Source: Escherichia coli
GTDB taxonomy: Bacteria; Pseudomonadota; Gammaproteobacteria; Enterobacterales; Enterobacteriaceae
Length of the DNA stretch: 64,000 bases
Direction: 5' to 3' (one strand)
Assembly: GCF_003334315.1 (NCBI RefSeq)
Contig: NZ_QOWR01000013.1
The notes under the pieces are model-generated. The model had not been told where the DNA came from, did not search any database, and saw only the letters and a list, made by a program, of their open reading frames with translations. Both the position numbers and the translations under genes were made by a program. This document shows positions 16,599 to 23,657 of this stretch, piece by piece (positions within the stretch are counted from its first letter, which is position 1; every line of letters begins with the position of its first letter).

Positions 16599-17246
16599 TT
16601 ACTCTTCAATTCGTAACCCATAGGTTTTGAATTTCTCCAGCACTACGGCAATCTCTTCATCGCTCAGCACTGGCACCGGGTCCGTAATCGCCAGGGTCGT
16701 CAGGTAAAGTTGCGCCAGCACTTCAACTTCATGCGCCAGCCATAACGCTTTTTCCAGATTCACCTCACAAGCGATAAGCCCATGATGTTGTAACAAAGTT
16801 GCCTTACGATTTTTGAGAGCCAGCGCAACATGTTCAGAAAGTTCGCGTGTTCCAAAGGTCGCATAAGGCGCGCAAGGAATAGAATTACCGCCAGCCGCCG
16901 CAATCATGTAGTGAATAGCGGGGATCGATCGGTTAAGAATGGAAACTGCCGTGCAATGAACGGCATGATTGTGAACAACCGCGTTGGCATCCGGTCTGCT
17001 TTGATAGGCTGCCATATGGAAACGCCATTCGCTTGAGGGGAGCTTTCCTTCCTCATGTTTACCGTTGCCATCAATAAAGACAATATGCGACTCCGTCAGT
17101 TTTTCATATGGAATGCCTGTAGGCGTAATCAGCATCCCATCCTGATAACGTACACTGACGTTCCCCGCTGTCCCCTGGTTCAGTCCCAGGCGGGTCATTT
17201 CCAGGCAAGTGTCAATAATCTGACGAGCAAGTTTATTTCGTTCCAT
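16599..17246 (-). CDS. fucA: L-fuculose-1-phosphate aldolase (class II), 215 aa
   Basis: 215-aa ORF recognised from memory. Confidence 0.95.
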   Translation of the reverse strand: MERNKLARQIIDTCLEMTRLGLNQGTAGNVSVRYQDGMLITPTGIPYEKLTESHIVFIDGNGKHEEGKLPSSEWRFHMAAYQSRPDANAVVHNHAVHCTAVSILNRSIPAIHYMIAAAGGNSIPCAPYATFGTRELSEHVALALKNRKATLLQHHGLIACEVNLEKALWLAHEVEVLAQLYLTTLAITDPVPVLSDEEIAVVLEKFKTYGLRIEE

Positions 17247-17372
17247 TAGCTACCTCTCTCTGATTCAAAACAGGGCAATAATGTTGTTCCTTTCACACTA
17301 TTGAATTAGCCGTTTAATTACCCACCATCTTCTTCCTGATTAACAAGAAAGAAATTCACAAGCTTATATTTT

Positions 17373-17530
17373 GTGACCTGGTTCAACTAATCACAGTAAA
17401 TAACTGCAAGTTCTCTTTTTATAACCCCATTAAAAATGACCGCTCTTAAAAATATTTATCAAAACGGTCATTTTTCTATTCCTCCAAGCCCGGAATGACC
17501 GTTTTCGGCACAAACAATTAATACGGTCAT
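17373..17530. promoter_or_regulatory. Divergent fucAO / fucPIKUR control region: CRP-like half-sites (TGTGA-N6-TCAAC at 17373-17388) and four phased ATGACCG / CGGTCAT heptamers
   Basis: Heptamers at 17436, 17465, 17495 and 17524 in alternating orientation with 29-30 bp spacing, each in an A/T-rich context; read directly. Confidence 0.5.
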
Positions 17531-17792
17531 CTGATTTGTGTTTTTTATGATTTATTTTCTGAAACGGGCATGAAATTTCGATTATTAAAGTGATGGTAGT
17601 CACATAAAGTCACCTTCTAGCTAATAAGTGTGACCGCCGTCATATTACAGAGCGTTTTTTATTTGAAAATGAATCCATGAGTTCATTTCAGACAGGCAAA
17701 TATTCACTGATATGAAGCCCGAACTCGCTGGTTTTGCACTTTTGAAAACATAACCGATTACGTGCTTAAGCTTCTGAACCTAAGAGGATGCT

Positions 17793-19109
17793 ATGGGAAA
17801 CACATCAATACAAACGCAGAGTTACCGTGCGGTAGATAAAGATGCAGGGCAAAGCAGAAGTTACATTATTCCATTCGCGCTGCTGTGCTCACTGTTTTTT
17901 CTTTGGGCGGTAGCCAATAACCTTAACGACATTTTATTACCTCAATTCCAGCAGGCTTTTACGCTGACAAATTTCCAGGCTGGCCTGATCCAATCGGCCT
18001 TTTACTTTGGTTATTTCATTATCCCAATCCCTGCTGGGATATTGATGAAAAAACTCAGTTATAAAGCAGGGATTATTACCGGGTTATTTTTATATGCCTT
18101 GGGTGCTGCATTATTCTGGCCCGCCGCAGAAATAATGAACCACACCTTATTTTTAGTTGGCCTATTTATTATTGCAGCCGGATTAGGTTGTCTGGAAACT
18201 GCCGCAAACCCTTTTGTTACGGTATTAGGGCCGGAAAGTAGTGGTCACTTCCGCTTAAATCTTGCGCAAACATTTAACTCGTTTGGCGCAATTATCGCGG
18301 TTGTCTTTGGGCAAAGTCTTATTTTGTCTAACGTGCCACATCAATCGCAAGACGTTCTCGATAAAATGTCTCCAGAGCAATTGAGTGCGTATAAACACAG
18401 CCTGGTATTATCGGTACAGACACCTTATATGATCATCGTGGCTATCGTGTTACTGGTCGCCCTGCTGATCATGCTGACGAAATTCCCGGCATTGCAGAGT
18501 GATAATCACAGTGACGCCAAACAAGGATCGTTCTCCGCATCGCTTTCTCGCCTGGCGCGTATTCGCCACTGGCGCTGGGCGGTATTAGCGCAATTCTGCT
18601 ATGTCGGCGCACAAACGGCCTGCTGGAGCTATTTGATTCGCTACGCTGTAGAAGAAATTCCAGGTATGACTGCAGGCTTTGCCGCTAACTATTTAACCGG
18701 AACCATGGTGTGCTTCTTTATTGGTCGTTTCACCGGTACCTGGCTCATCAGTCGCTTCGCACCACACAAAGTCCTGGCCGCCTACGCATTAATCGCTATG
18801 GCACTGTGCCTGATCTCAGCCTTCGCTGGCGGTCATGTGGGCTTAATAGCCCTGACTTTATGCAGCGCCTTTATGTCGATTCAGTACCCAACAATCTTCT
18901 CGCTGGGCATTAAGAATCTCGGCCAGGACACCAAATATGGTTCGTCCTTCATCGTTATGACCATTATTGGCGGCGGTATTGTCACTCCGGTCATGGGTTT
19001 TGTCAGTGACGCGGCGGGCAACATCCCCACTGCTGAACTGATCCCCGCACTCTGCTTCGCGGTCATCTTTATCTTTGCCCGTTTCCGTTCTCAAACGGCA
19101 ACTAACTGA
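17793..19109 (+). CDS. fucP: L-fucose:H+ symporter (MFS), 438 aa
   Basis: 438-aa membrane protein ORF; AAGAGGA RBS. Confidence 0.95.
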   Translation: MGNTSIQTQSYRAVDKDAGQSRSYIIPFALLCSLFFLWAVANNLNDILLPQFQQAFTLTNFQAGLIQSAFYFGYFIIPIPAGILMKKLSYKAGIITGLFLYALGAALFWPAAEIMNHTLFLVGLFIIAAGLGCLETAANPFVTVLGPESSGHFRLNLAQTFNSFGAIIAVVFGQSLILSNVPHQSQDVLDKMSPEQLSAYKHSLVLSVQTPYMIIVAIVLLVALLIMLTKFPALQSDNHSDAKQGSFSASLSRLARIRHWRWAVLAQFCYVGAQTACWSYLIRYAVEEIPGMTAGFAANYLTGTMVCFFIGRFTGTWLISRFAPHKVLAAYALIAMALCLISAFAGGHVGLIALTLCSAFMSIQYPTIFSLGIKNLGQDTKYGSSFIVMTIIGGGIVTPVMGFVSDAAGNIPTAELIPALCFAVIFIFARFRSQTATN

Positions 19110-19141
19110 ACATATTTTCCGAATAAAGTGAGGAATCTGTA

Positions 19142-20917
19142 ATGAAAAAAATCAGCTTACCGAAAATTGGTATCCGCCCGGTTATTGACGGTCGTCGCAT
19201 GGGTGTTCGTGAGTCGCTTGAAGAACAAACAATGAATATGGCGAAAGCTACGGCCGCACTGCTGACCGAGAAACTGCGCCATGCCTGCGGAGCTGCCGTC
19301 GAGTGTGTCATTTCCGATACCTGTATCGCGGGTATGGCTGAAGCCGCTGCTTGCGAAGAAAAATTCAGCAGTCAGAATGTAGGCCTCACCATTACGGTAA
19401 CGCCTTGCTGGTGCTATGGCAGTGAAACCATCGACATGGATCCAACCCGCCCGAAAGCCATTTGGGGCTTTAACGGCACTGAACGTCCCGGCGCTGTTTA
19501 CCTGGCAGCGGCTCTGGCAGCTCACAGCCAGAAAGGCATCCCGGCATTCTCCATTTACGGTCATGACGTTCAGGATGCCGATGACACATCGATTCCTGCC
19601 GATGTTGAAGAAAAACTGCTGCGCTTTGCCCGCGCCGGTTTGGCCGTCGCCAGCATGAAAGGTAAAAGCTATCTGTCGCTGGGCGGCGTTTCGATGGGTA
19701 TCGCCGGTTCTATTGTTGATCACAACTTCTTTGAATCCTGGCTGGGAATGAAAGTCCAGGCGGTGGATATGACCGAACTGCGTCGCCGTATCGATCAGCA
19801 GATTTACGACGAAGCCGAACTGGAAATGGCGCTGGCCTGGGCTGATAAAAACTTCCGCTATGGCGAAGATGAAAATAACAAACAGTATCAACGTAATGCC
19901 GAGCAAAGCCGCGCAGTTCTGCGCGAAAGTTTACTGATGGCGATGTGTATCCGCGACATGATGCAAGGCAACAGCAAACTGGCCGATATTGGTCGCGTGG
20001 AAGAATCACTTGGCTACAACGCCATCGCTGCGGGCTTCCAGGGGCAACGTCACTGGACCGATCAATATCCCAATGGTGACACCGCCGAAGCGATCCTCAA
20101 CAGTTCATTTGACTGGAATGGCGTGCGCGAACCCTTTGTCGTGGCGACCGAAAACGACAGTCTTAACGGCGTGGCAATGCTAATGGGTCACCAGCTCACC
20201 GGCACCGCTCAGGTATTTGCCGATGTGCGTACCTACTGGTCACCAGAAGCAATTGAGCGTGTAACGGGGCATAAACTGGATGGACTGGCAGAACACGGCA
20301 TCATCCATTTGATCAACTCCGGTTCTGCTGCGCTGGACGGTTCCTGTAAACAACGCGACAGCGAAGGTAACCCGACGATGAAGCCACACTGGGAAATCTC
20401 TCAGCAAGAGGCTGACGCTTGCCTCGCCGCTACCGAATGGTGCCCGGCGATCCACGAATACTTCCGTGGCGGCGGTTACTCTTCCCGCTTCCTTACCGAA
20501 GGCGGCGTCCCGTTCACCATGACTCGTGTCAACATCATCAAAGGCCTGGGACCGGTACTGCAAATCGCGGAAGGCTGGAGCGTGGAATTGCCGAAGGATG
20601 TGCATGACATCCTCAACAAACGCACCAACTCAACCTGGCCAACCACCTGGTTTGCACCGCGCCTCACCGGTAAAGGGCCGTTTACGGATGTGTACTCGGT
20701 AATGGCGAACTGGGGCGCTAACCATGGGGTTCTGACCATCGGCCACGTTGGCGCAGACTTTATCACTCTCGCCTCCATGCTGCGTATCCCGGTATGTATG
20801 CACAACGTTGAAGAGACCAAAGTGTATCGTCCTTCTGCCTGGGCTGCGCACGGCATGGATATTGAAGGCCAGGATTACCGCGCTTGCCAGAACTACGGTC
20901 CGTTGTACAAGCGTTAA
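19142..20917 (+). CDS. fucI: L-fucose isomerase, 591 aa
   Basis: 591-aa ORF recognised from memory. Confidence 0.96.
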
Positions 20918-22925: not shown

Positions 22926-23657
22926 ATGAAAGCGGCACGCCAGCAAGCGATAGTCGACCTGCTGCTGAACCATACCAGCCTGACCACGGAAGCTCTCTCT
23001 GAACAGCTAAAGGTCAGTAAAGAAACCATTCGTCGCGATCTCAATGAATTACAGACGCAGGGTAAAATTCTGCGCAATCATGGACGCGCTAAATATATCC
23101 ACCGTCAAAATCAAGACAGTGGCGATCCCTTTCACATCCGGCTGAAAAGCCATTATGCGCATAAAGCAGATATCGCGCGCGAGGCGCTCGCGTGGATTGA
23201 AGAAGGGATGGTGATAGCCTTAGACGCCAGTTCAACTTGCTGGTATCTGGCACGCCAGTTGCCTGACATCAACATTCAGGTCTTCACCAATAGCCATCCG
23301 ATTTGCCATGAACTCGGTAAACGCGAACGCATTCAACTGATCAGTTCCGGCGGCACACTTGAGCGCAAATATGGCTGTTACGTCAATCCCTCGCTGATTT
23401 CCCAACTTAAATCGCTGGAAATCGATCTGTTTATTTTTTCTTGTGAAGGGATCGATAGCAGCGGCGCACTGTGGGACTCCAATGCCATCAACGCTGATTA
23501 CAAATCGATGCTATTAAAACGTGCCGCGCAATCGTTGTTATTGATTGATAAAAGTAAATTTAATCGTTCAGGGGAAGCCCGCATCGGGCATCTGGATGAG
23601 GTAACGCACATTATTTCTGATGAGCGCCAGGTTGCAACTTCTTTGGTAACAGCCTGA
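22926..23657 (+). CDS. fucR: DeoR-family transcriptional activator of the fuc regulon, 243 aa
   Basis: ORF 22917..23657; start at MKAARQQAIVDLLL; N-terminal HTH and C-terminal sugar-phosphate-binding domain. Confidence 0.92.
   Translation: MKAARQQAIVDLLLNHTSLTTEALSEQLKVSKETIRRDLNELQTQGKILRNHGRAKYIHRQNQDSGDPFHIRLKSHYAHKADIAREALAWIEEGMVIALDASSTCWYLARQLPDINIQVFTNSHPICHELGKRERIQLISSGGTLERKYGCYVNPSLISQLKSLEIDLFIFSCEGIDSSGALWDSNAINADYKSMLLKRAAQSLLLIDKSKFNRSGEARIGHLDEVTHIISDERQVATSLVTA

What the first reader, a model, noticed from the sequence alone, without database searches (positions are those of the whole stretch)
17373..17640. Four ATGACCG heptamers phased about 30 bp apart in alternating orientation in the fucAO / fucPIKUR divergent control region
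ATGACCG at 17436 and 17495 and its complement CGGTCAT at 17465 and 17524 are spaced 29, 30 and 29 bp apart, each within an A/T-rich context resembling AATGACCGTTTT. This looks like two tandem operators, each an inverted pair of half-sites, of the kind bound by an oligomeric DeoR-type regulator such as FucR. A weak CRP-like site (TGTGA-N6-TCAAC at 17373) lies nearby and a fifth degenerate copy at about 17630.
Basis: seen in the sequence. Interest (0 to 1): 0.45.

Follow-up and report, generated by a model that had tools for sequence, protein, structure and literature searches.

The report
Known FucR operator boxes, fuc region
The four ATGACCG repeats are real, conserved docking sites for FucR, the fucose activator of E. 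coli, and they have already been published, so the finding is correct but not new.

Summary
ATGACCG lies at 17436 and 17495 and CGGTCAT at 17465 and 17524, in the 546-bp E. coli fucA/fucP intergenic region. About 0.035 heptamers are expected there by chance.

It is already known. The heptamer is the core of the published FucR DAP-seq motif (CGG[T/G]CA). Box 1 (OFucR3) and box 3 (OFucR2) were validated by mutagenesis in 2024. A 2025 paper speaks of four FucR operators. The "fifth copy" at 17630 is the CRP site OCrp0, not a FucR box.

Comparison of 46 orthologous Enterobacterales regions adds three points:
- Convergent pairs keep a 29-30 bp spacing in 71 of 74 cases, while the box 2 to box 3 gap varies from 19 to 52 bp (85 in one locus). 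The regular ~30-bp array is therefore an E. coli coincidence.
- There are two rigid modules: OCrp2, box 1 and box 2 for fucAO; boxes 3, 4 and 5 with OCrp1 and OCrp0 for fucPIKUR.

Published truncations show that box 1 alone gives about 70% of fucAO induction, so the pairs are not strictly obligatory. Interest is low to moderate.

The parts
16599..17246 (-). fucA CDS (L-fuculose-phosphate aldolase), first gene of fucAO
   Evidence: ORF list; RefSeq annotation of an identical E. coli locus
17279..17300 (-). OCrp3, a CRP site in the fucAO 5' UTR (tagTGTGAaaggaacaACAtta on the minus strand)
   Evidence: Sequence given in PMC11011485, mapped onto. The paper reports about 30% loss of activity when it is mutated.
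17309..17309 (-). [quoted passage not shown]
   Evidence: PMC11011485. The minus-strand base at 17309 is C, as the paper reports.
17369..17390 (.). OCrp2, the CRP site (tttTGTGAcctggtTCAActaa), centred about -70.5 from the PfucAO start.
   Evidence: Sequence and mutagenesis (14-fold and 350-fold loss) in PMC11011485. TGTGA and TCA are conserved in 31 aligned genomes. It lies a fixed 63/64 bp from box 1.
17436..17442 (+). FucR box 1 (ATGACCG), the core of published OFucR3 (15-mer 17435-17449); left half of operator A
   Evidence: Mutation lowers fucose induction of PfucAO more than 50-fold (PMC11011485). Conserved as TG[A/C/T]CCG.
17465..17471 (-). FucR box 2 (CGGTCAT on the + strand); right half of operator A; best motif match in the window
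   Evidence: Top PWM score in 64 kb. Conserved as CGG[T/G]CA (mean column identity 0.90). Lies 29/30 bp from box 1 in all genera that have box 1. No published test was found.
17495..17501 (+). FucR box 3 (ATGACCG), the core of published OFucR2 (15-mer 17494-17508); left half of operator B
   Evidence: Site proposed from DAP-seq; mutation gives about 30% loss of fucAO induction (PMC11011485). It is ATGCCCG in other Escherichia.
17524..17530 (-). FucR box 4 (CGGTCAT on the + strand); right half of operator B
   Evidence: Lies 29 bp from box 3 in 41 of the 42 regions in which both boxes were located (30 bp in the other), and a fixed 66/67 bp from OCrp1. Dispensable for fucAO, since the -270 truncation keeps full activity.
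17536..17542 (+). Box X: a degenerate position (TTGTGTT; cTGTGGGtttt in most Enterobacteriaceae) 29 bp upstream of box 5; possible vestigial left half of operator C
   Evidence: Conserved block in the alignment. Canonical ATGACCG at this position only in the Photorhabdus luminescens group. Its function is not established.
17565..17571 (-).
   Evidence: The most conserved box (0.91). Fixed 25/26 bp from OCrp1 and 41/42 bp from box 4. Fits the published motif, which allows T or G at this position.
17589..17604 (.). OCrp1, a CRP site (aGTGAtggtagTCACA) of the fucPIKUR promoter
   Evidence: Inferred: PMC11894529 places the IS5 target between OCrp0 and OCrp1 without giving this site's sequence, and this is the only CRP-like sequence on the fucA side of the CTAG. 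Strongly conserved.
17617..17620 (.). CTAG, the IS5 target of propanediol-positive mutants (-374 to -371 from the fucA ATG)
   Evidence: PMC11894529; the coordinates match the sequence.
17629..17644 (.). OCrp0, a CRP site (TGTGAccgccgTCATA).
   Evidence: Inferred from position: PMC11894529 puts OCrp0 upstream of the IS5 insertion, centred at -61.5 of the fusion promoter, which maps to 17636.5. Conserved as TGTGACC....ATCATATTA in other genera.
17793..19109 (+). fucP CDS, first gene of fucPIKUR
22926..23657 (+). fucR CDS; the DeoR-family activator that reads the boxes
   Evidence: RefSeq annotation. Pfam HTH_DeoR (1.3e-21) and DeoRC (2.5e-45).

Best explanation
The heptamers are the cores of recognition boxes (consensus AAA-CGG-[T/G]-CA-T, which is A-TG-[A/C]-CCG-TTT on the other strand) for FucR. 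FucR is the DeoR-family activator of the L-fucose regulon and is activated by fuculose-1-phosphate. The boxes sit in the control region shared by the divergent fucAO and fucPIKUR operons.

Shown in the literature:
- the FucR motif from DAP-seq;
- loss of fucose induction of PfucAO when box 1 (more than 50-fold) or box 3 (about 30%) is mutated;
- dependence of PfucAO on the CRP site OCrp2.

Shown here:
- E. coli has five canonical boxes (17436>, 17465<, 17495>, 17524<, 17565<), all conserved across Enterobacterales.
- Convergent boxes form 36-bp units with a near-invariant 29-bp spacing. Operator A is boxes 1 and 2, operator B is boxes 3 and 4, and operator C is a degenerate box X plus box 5.
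- These units are locked at fixed distances to CRP sites in two modules. The first is PfucAO, OCrp2, 63/64 bp, operator A. The second is operator B, operator C, 25 bp, OCrp1, 40 bp, OCrp0, PfucPIKUR. A linker of variable length joins the two modules.

Inferred:
- Each 36-bp unit is occupied by a FucR dimer, or by half of a tetramer, with one winged-helix head per box.
- In E. coli the dyad centres of operator B, operator C, OCrp1 and OCrp0 are 41, 43 and 40 bp apart (about 4 helical turns). Operator A is 74 bp (about 7 turns) from OCrp2. FucR and CRP would therefore lie on one face of the DNA.
- FucR, which binds far upstream (about -130 to -160 from the PfucAO start), would act by helping CRP and RNA polymerase rather than by touching the polymerase at the core promoter.
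For: Identity of the region.

The boxes match the published FucR consensus, and OFucR2 and OFucR3 are boxes 3 and 1.

FucR has HTH_DeoR and DeoRC domains.

Chance is excluded.

Conservation. Box columns show 0.85-0.91 identity against 0.65 for the unannotated remainder of 17346-17665 and 0.47 for the box 2-box 3 spacer.

Pair spacing. Among adjacent convergent pairs, 67 are 29 bp apart and 4 are 30 bp apart, out of 74. Adjacent divergent pairs range from 11 to 156 bp.

Fixed distances to the CRP sites across genera.

Specificity.
- Every TGMCCG-N22-CGGKCA match in 81 loci (about 0.5 Mb) lies 150-360 bp upstream of fucA.
- The pattern is present in 42 of 46 loci with divergent fucP and in 4 of 35 loci without it.
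- The five boxes are among the seven best PWM hits in the 64-kb window.

PMC11894529 refers to four FucR operators, OR0 to OR3, all on the fucA side of the IS5 site.
Against: No per-box FucR footprint or gel shift was found in the papers I could read. Binding to boxes 2, 4 and 5 is inferred from the motif and from conservation.

Against obligatory pairing:
- The published -206 construct ends at 17452. It keeps box 1 but lacks boxes 2 and 3, and it retains about 70% of induction. That is the same loss as mutating box 3 alone.
- The -270 construct lacks box 4 and is fully active.
- The published motif is an asymmetric 15-mer, not a palindrome.
- Operator C has no canonical left half in Enterobacteriaceae.

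The genomes compared are related, so the counts of conserved spacings are not independent events.

The same-face argument depends on an assumed 10.5 bp per turn. It is derived from E. coli coordinates plus conserved distances, not from any measurement. A 29-bp half-site spacing is 2.76 turns, which is not an integral number.
Confidence: 0.85

Rival explanations
1. The boxes are independent single sites that work in one orientation only. Each roughly 15-bp asymmetric box binds FucR on its own. Boxes whose CGGTCAT reads towards fucA (1 and 3) serve PfucAO, and boxes reading towards fucP (2, 4 and 5) serve PfucPIKUR. The alternating pattern would then be two interleaved sets, not dyad-symmetric operators.
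For: The published motif is asymmetric. The two boxes validated for fucAO share one orientation. The -206 truncation, with box 1 only, keeps about 70% of activity, and the -270 truncation, without box 4, keeps full activity. Box 5 has no canonical partner in most genera. The literature splits the operators into OR0/OR1 for fucPIKR and OR2/OR3 for fucAO.
Against: Independent sites give no reason for box 1-box 2 and box 3-box 4 to keep 29-30 bp in 71 of 74 cases while the neighbouring box 2-box 3 gap drifts from 19 to 52 bp. Nor do they explain why the spacers within a pair are better conserved (0.71-0.78) than the spacer between pairs (0.47). In the Photorhabdus luminescens group the third unit is also a full 29-bp convergent pair.
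Confidence: 0.3
2. The repeats are a chance or compositional feature of an A/T-rich intergenic region and have no function.
For: The bare heptamer is somewhat over-represented in the whole window (21 found against 8.2 expected), including an unconserved cluster inside fucP and fucI. Isolated heptamers therefore do occur without function.
Against: Four copies in 546 bp has P of about 6e-8. The paired pattern has an expectation of 0.01. The boxes are conserved across orders of divergence at which the flanking sequence is scrambled. Published mutagenesis shows that two of them are needed.
Confidence: 0.01
3. The boxes are read by a regulator other than FucR, for example CRP, the LysR-type SrsR that binds this intergenic region, or a nucleoid protein.
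For: SrsR gives a gSELEX peak in the fucA/fucP spacer. Four CRP sites lie in the same region. The TGACCG at 17631 really is part of a CRP site.
Against: The SrsR box assigned to this spacer (gCtGgTTTTGC) maps to 17727-17737, about 160 bp from the nearest box. SrsR was reported not to regulate fucAO directly. The boxes lack the TGTGA-N6-TCACA pattern. The box mutations affect only fucose-induced (FucR-dependent) activity, not basal activity. The motif came from FucR DAP-seq.
Confidence: 0.02

Closest known systems
Published E. coli FucR operators OFucR2/OFucR3 (OR0-OR3) and the FucR DAP-seq motif (Baumgart et al. 2021; Zhang et al. 2024, PMC11011485; Zhang et al. 2025, PMC11894529)
   Same: It is the same locus and the same sequences. 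Box 3 is OFucR2 (CCGAAAACGGTCATT) and box 1 is OFucR3 (TTAAGAGCGGTCATT). The CGG[T/G]CA core is the same, and so are the CRP partners OCrp0 to OCrp3.
   Different: The papers treat the sites as single 15-mers and name four operators. In the text I could read, they give no sequences for OR0 and OR1. Five canonical boxes are conserved, so at least one (most likely box 2 or box 5) lies outside the published set. The 29-bp pairing, the degenerate sixth position and the two-module geometry are not mentioned in the parts I read (the terms 'inverted', 'palindrom' and 'DeoR' have 0 occurrences).
Multi-operator control regions of other E. coli DeoR-family regulators: GlpR at glpTQ/glpACB, UlaR at ulaG/ulaA, AgaR, and DeoR with three operators and looping (from general knowledge, not checked here)
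   Same: An oligomeric HTH_DeoR + DeoRC protein that senses a sugar phosphate. Several operators are spread over 100-150 bp of a control region, often one with divergent promoters, and they work together with CRP.
   Different: Those proteins are repressors released by their effector, whereas FucR is an effector-dependent activator. Their operators are usually described as compact palindromes or tandem repeats of 16-24 bp, not half-sites 29 bp apart. No DNA-bound structure of a close relative is available for comparison: phmmer against the PDB gave no hit at E<=1e-3, and the only family member found was a DeoR C-terminal domain at E=0.2.
Sugar promoters that depend on CRP plus a co-activator: AraC at araBAD, MelR at melAB, MalT at malK/malE, RhaS/RhaR (from general knowledge)
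   Same: A sugar-specific activator is bound upstream of, and in a fixed helical register with, one or two CRP sites. Both proteins are needed for full activity. PMC11011485 likewise suggests that FucR mainly helps CRP.
   Different: The activator family differs (DeoR, not AraC/XylS or MalT). The FucR boxes lie unusually far upstream (about -130 or more from the PfucAO start), with CRP between them and the promoter.

Membership tests
FucR operator (E. coli fucose regulon) | Matches the experimentally derived FucR motif (R-Y-S-M-R-H-W-CGG-K-CA-W-B) | tested here: met
   All four heptamers and the box at 17565 carry CGG[T/G]CA with an A-rich 5' flank. Box 2 fits every position of the published consensus.
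FucR operator (E. coli fucose regulon) | Lies in the control region of FucR-regulated operons | tested here: met
   The boxes lie between fucA and fucP, and fucR lies downstream in fucPIKUR.
FucR operator (E. coli fucose regulon) | Required for fucose/FucR-dependent activation | not testable with these tools
   The literature shows this for box 1 (more than 50-fold) and box 3 (about 30%) at PfucAO. No published test of boxes 2, 4 or 5 was found. The truncations suggest that boxes 2, 4 and 5 are largely dispensable for fucAO. No fucP-reporter data were available.
FucR operator (E. coli fucose regulon) | Direct binding of FucR to each box (footprint, EMSA or ChIP) | not testable with these tools
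   Only the DAP-seq-derived motif and site, as quoted by PMC11011485, could be consulted. The Baumgart paper is not held.
FucR operator (E. coli fucose regulon) | Conserved in orthologous control regions | tested here: met
   46 Enterobacterales loci were compared. The boxes are conserved as TGMCCG/CGGKCA at fixed relative positions and are absent from 31 of 35 fucA-like loci that lack fucP.
Dyad-symmetric (inverted-pair) operator | Two half-sites in inverted orientation at a fixed spacing | tested here: met
   Convergent orientation; the spacing is 29 bp in 67 and 30 bp in 4 of 74 adjacent convergent pairs. Operator C has only one canonical half in most genera.
Dyad-symmetric (inverted-pair) operator | Both halves needed for binding or function | tested here: inconclusive
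   Published truncations show about 70% of activity with box 1 alone, which argues against a strict requirement. No binding data are available.
DeoR-family regulator (FucR protein) | N-terminal HTH_DeoR domain plus C-terminal DeoRC sensor domain | tested here: met
   Pfam PF08220 (1.3e-21, residues 5-60) and PF00455 (2.5e-45, residues 76-233).
CRP site (for 17372-17387 and 17629-17644) | TGTGA-N6-TCACA-like dyad, conserved, and CRP-dependent in function | tested here: met
   The sequences are TGTGAcctggtTCAAC and TGTGAccgccgTCATA. Both are conserved. Function is published: mutating OCrp2 gives 14-fold and 350-fold loss, and OCrp0 is required for the IS5 fusion promoter.

The most novel reading that the evidence does not exclude
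FucR may not read isolated 15-mers. It may read 36-bp split palindromes whose half-sites are held exactly 29 bp apart. Three such units would stand in helical register with three CRP sites and form two rigid promoter modules joined by a flexible linker. That would be an unusually long-span DNA-binding geometry for a DeoR-family protein, a family for which no DNA-bound structure of a close relative was found. It would also mean that at least one conserved FucR box (box 2 or box 5), and a vestigial sixth position, are missing from the published four-operator scheme.
Probability: 0.5. Interest if true: 0.4.

Novelty: already known. Interest (0 to 1): 0.2.

Why it matters
The fuc control region is a classic system for dual activation by a sugar-specific regulator and CRP, for IS5-mediated promoter activation, and for E. 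coli fitness in the gut. The boxes themselves are already published, so the finding mainly shows that the first-stage reader recovered a real operator array from raw sequence.

The comparative layer added here gives a concrete and cheap hypothesis for how a DeoR-type activator is positioned on DNA. It comprises the invariant 29-bp pairs, a conserved fifth box, fixed distances to the CRP sites, and a variable linker between a fucAO module and a fucPIKUR module. It also identifies which boxes should be mutated to explain fucPIKUR activation, which has not been dissected at the level of individual boxes in the papers I could read.

Tried and rejected
- Exact-heptamer conservation. A search for ATGACCG/CGGTCAT alone in orthologous regions looked patchy, because position 4 varies (A, C or T). 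I replaced it with the core TGMCCG/CGGKCA.
- The fifth copy at 17630 as a FucR box. Rejected: it is the CRP site OCrp0.
- A regular ~30-bp phased array of four boxes. Rejected as a conserved feature: the middle gap varies from 19 to 52 bp.
- The five extra heptamers inside fucP and fucI (18830-19769) as intragenic FucR sites. Rejected: their flanks are poor and they are not conserved, apart from one that is fixed by the protein sequence.
- SrsR as the protein that reads the boxes. Rejected: its box maps to 17727-17737.
- A structural template for FucR on DNA. None was found in the PDB by sequence.
- Identifying which boxes are the published OR0 and OR1. I could not: the figures are not held, the supplements contain nothing relevant, and Baumgart 2021, Podolny 1999 and Zhang 2010 are not in the library.
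- A literature search for DeoR-family operators with widely spaced half-sites returned nothing relevant.

Full report
**What is there**

The window is E. coli K-12-type DNA. The stretch 17247-17792 is 100% identical to many E. coli chromosomes and is present in 5,025 of 5,426 complete genomes. It is the 546-bp region between fucA (16599-17246, minus strand) and fucP (17793-19109, plus strand). fucI, fucK, fucU and fucR lie downstream.

ATGACCG occurs at 17436 and 17495, and its complement CGGTCAT at 17465 and 17524.

It is not chance:
- About 0.035 heptamers are expected in this A/T-rich region (Poisson P(>=4) about 6e-8), and none of 200,000 shuffles gave four.
- The paired pattern TGMCCG-N22-CGGKCA occurs twice in the 64-kb window, both times here, against 0.01 expected.

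**What is already published**

PMC11011485 (Int J Mol Sci 2024) quotes a FucR motif from a high-throughput in vitro binding assay (Baumgart et al. 2021) whose invariant core is CGG[T/G]CA. It names two sites:
- OFucR2 (CCGAAAACGGTCATT) is the reverse complement of 17494-17508, which is box 3.
- OFucR3 (TTAAGAGCGGTCATT) is the reverse complement of 17435-17449, which is box 1.

Mutating OFucR3 lowered fucose-induced PfucAO activity more than 50-fold, and mutating OFucR2 lowered it by about 30%. Neither mutation changed basal activity.

[quoted passage not shown] It also validates the CRP site OCrp2 (ttagtTGAaccaggTCACAaaa, 17369-17390), with 14-fold and 350-fold losses on mutation. It is real and essential, and it is centred about -70.5 from the start site.

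[quoted passage not shown] It states that "all four known binding sites" lie on the fucA side of the IS5 target CTAG (-374 to -371, which is 17617-17620), and that this target sits between the CRP sites OCrp0 and OCrp1.
- By position, OCrp0 is therefore TGTGAccgccgTCATA at 17629-17644.
- By the same reasoning, OCrp1 is aGTGAtggtagTCACA at 17589-17604.

FucR itself has HTH_DeoR and DeoRC domains, so "DeoR-type regulator" is correct.

A protein-anchored scan with FucA returned 80 loci from one genome per species. In 46 of them, fucP (at least 75% identical) is divergent from fucA across 419-665 bp. They span Escherichia, Salmonella, Citrobacter, Klebsiella, Raoultella, Kluyvera, Enterobacter, Yokenella, Kosakonia, Mangrovibacter, Buttiauxella, Hafnia, Rahnella, Yersinia and Photorhabdus.

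Exact heptamers look patchy because the fourth base varies. With the core TGMCCG/CGGKCA the picture is sharp:
- All four boxes are conserved.
It is CGGGCAT at 17565-17571 in E. coli and CGGTCAT in most other genera, and it is the best conserved of all.
- In a 31-genome alignment the box columns are 0.85-0.91 identical. The unannotated remainder of 17346-17665 is 0.65 identical, and the spacer between boxes 2 and 3 is 0.47.
- A weight matrix built from one genome per genus gives AAA-CGG-K-CA-T. It ranks the five E. coli boxes among the seven best hits in the whole 64-kb window.
- Every occurrence of the paired pattern in the 81 loci held (about 0.5 Mb) lies 150-360 bp upstream of fucA. It is present in 42 of 46 loci with divergent fucP and in 4 of 35 fucA-like loci without it. 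Three of those four are Edwardsiella loci with a distant fucP-like gene.

**Architecture**

| Interval | Spacing across genera |
|---|---|
| Adjacent convergent boxes (> <) | 29 bp in 67 and 30 bp in 4 of 74 cases |
| Adjacent divergent boxes (< >) | 11 to 156 bp |
| OCrp2 (TGTGA start) to box 1 | 63/64 bp |
| Box 1 to box 2 | 29/30 bp |
| Box 2 to box 3 | 19-52 bp, and 85 bp in one Photorhabdus locus |
| Box 3 to box 4 | 29 bp (30 bp once) |
| Box 4 to OCrp1 | 66/67 bp |
| Box 5 to OCrp1 | 25/26 bp |

The even ~30-bp phasing of all four boxes in E. coli is therefore a coincidence. The conserved units are 36-bp convergent pairs that belong to two rigid modules:
- the fucAO module: PfucAO, OCrp2 and operator A (boxes 1 and 2);
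- the fucPIKUR module: operator B (boxes 3 and 4), box 5, OCrp1 and OCrp0.

A linker of free length joins the two modules.

Twenty-nine bp upstream of box 5 there is a conserved block, cTGTGGGtttt (TTGTGTT at 17536-17542 in E. coli). It is a canonical ATGACCG only in the Photorhabdus luminescens group. I read it as a possibly vestigial left half of a third operator C, but this is not established.

In E. coli the dyad centres of operator B (17512.5), operator C (17553.5), OCrp1 (17596.5) and OCrp0 (17636.5) are 41, 43 and 40 bp apart, which is about four helical turns. Operator A (17453.5) is 74 bp, about seven turns, from OCrp2 (17379.5). This arithmetic comes from the coordinates. The same-face interpretation is an inference.

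**Mechanism**

The best-supported reading is as follows. FucR carrying fuculose-1-phosphate occupies these boxes far upstream of both promoters (box 1 is about -130 from the PfucAO start). It activates through, or together with, the CRP molecules that lie between it and RNA polymerase. The authors of PMC11011485 also propose this.

That FucR binds each 36-bp unit as a dimer, or as half of a tetramer, is inferred only from the spacing invariance. There is published evidence against strict pairing:
- The -270 construct ends at 17516 and lacks boxes 4 and 5, yet it has full fucAO activity.
- The -206 construct ends at 17452 and keeps only box 1, yet it retains about 70% of activity. That is the same loss as mutating box 3 alone.
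- The -166 construct has no box and loses induction.

The main rival is that the boxes are independent sites that work in one orientation only. Boxes 1 and 3 would face fucA, and boxes 2, 4 and 5 would face fucP. That reading does not explain the 29-bp invariance.

No solved structure of a close relative exists to judge the geometry.

**Other rivals**

Chance is excluded by the statistics and the conservation described above. SrsR, which also binds this spacer, has its assigned box (gCtGgTTTTGC) at 17727-17737, far from the heptamers.

**Verdict**

It is wrong about the fifth copy, and it over-reads the regular phasing.

The element is already known: the motif was published in 2021, two boxes were validated in 2024, and four operators were named in 2025. 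Three things appear not to be in the text I could read: that five canonical boxes, not four, are conserved; the invariant 29-bp pairing; and the two-module geometry. I could not see the figures that would show which boxes are OR0 and OR1.

Interest is low to moderate.

Noticed in passing
It is CGGTCAT in most other Enterobacterales and is the most conserved box. It always lies 25/26 bp from the CRP site OCrp1 and 41/42 bp from box 4.
   Followed up: yes
window 17536-17546: A conserved block (TTGTGTTtttt here; cTGTGGGtttt in most Enterobacteriaceae) lies exactly 29 bp upstream of box 5. At the same position the Photorhabdus luminescens group has a canonical ATGACCG. It may be a decayed half-site, or a site for something else.
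   Followed up: partly
window 18830-19769 (fucP 3' end and fucI 5' part): Five more ATGACCG/CGGTCAT heptamers fall within about 940 bp of coding sequence. The heptamer is also over-represented in the whole window (21 found against 8.2 expected). Their flanks do not fit the FucR matrix, and only the one at 19769 (in frame, Asp-Met-Thr-Glu) is conserved in other genera, so the cluster is probably chance or codon usage.
   Followed up: yes
L082 (E. coli EC25, NZ_CM169476.1); equivalent to window 17726-17734: A human-gut isolate carries an IS1A element in the fucA/fucP spacer, with a 9-bp target duplication CGCTGGTTT. The insertion is about 60 bp upstream of the fucP ATG, inside the sequence assigned as the SrsR box, and well away from the FucR boxes and from the classic IS5 site (17617-17620).
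   Followed up: partly
window 17337-17361: PMC11011485 gives the PfucAO -35 element as TTGtgA at -96 to -91 from the fucA ATG. The minus-strand sequence at those coordinates (17337-17342) reads TAATCA. TTGTGA occurs at -115 to -110 (17356-17361), which is 36 bp from the stated -10 element (17314-17319). The published -35 assignment and its coordinates do not agree with each other. The transcription start and the -10 element do match the sequence.
   Followed up: no
window 17498 (fourth base of box 3): Box 3 is polymorphic within Escherichia. It is ATGACCG in this K-12-type sequence but ATGCCCG in another E. coli, an unnamed Escherichia species and E. albertii (L002-L004). Both forms fit the TGMCCG core.
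   Followed up: partly
L043, L048, L053 (Edwardsiella) and L058 (Serratia sp. DD3), about 160-310 bp upstream of fucA: One TGMCCG-N22-CGGKCA unit is present upstream of fucA even where the divergent neighbour is not an orthologous fucP. In Edwardsiella the neighbour is a gene about 40% identical to fucP that lies farther away, and in Serratia sp. DD3 there is no fucP-like gene. In contrast, 31 other fucA-like loci without fucP have no such unit.
   Followed up: no
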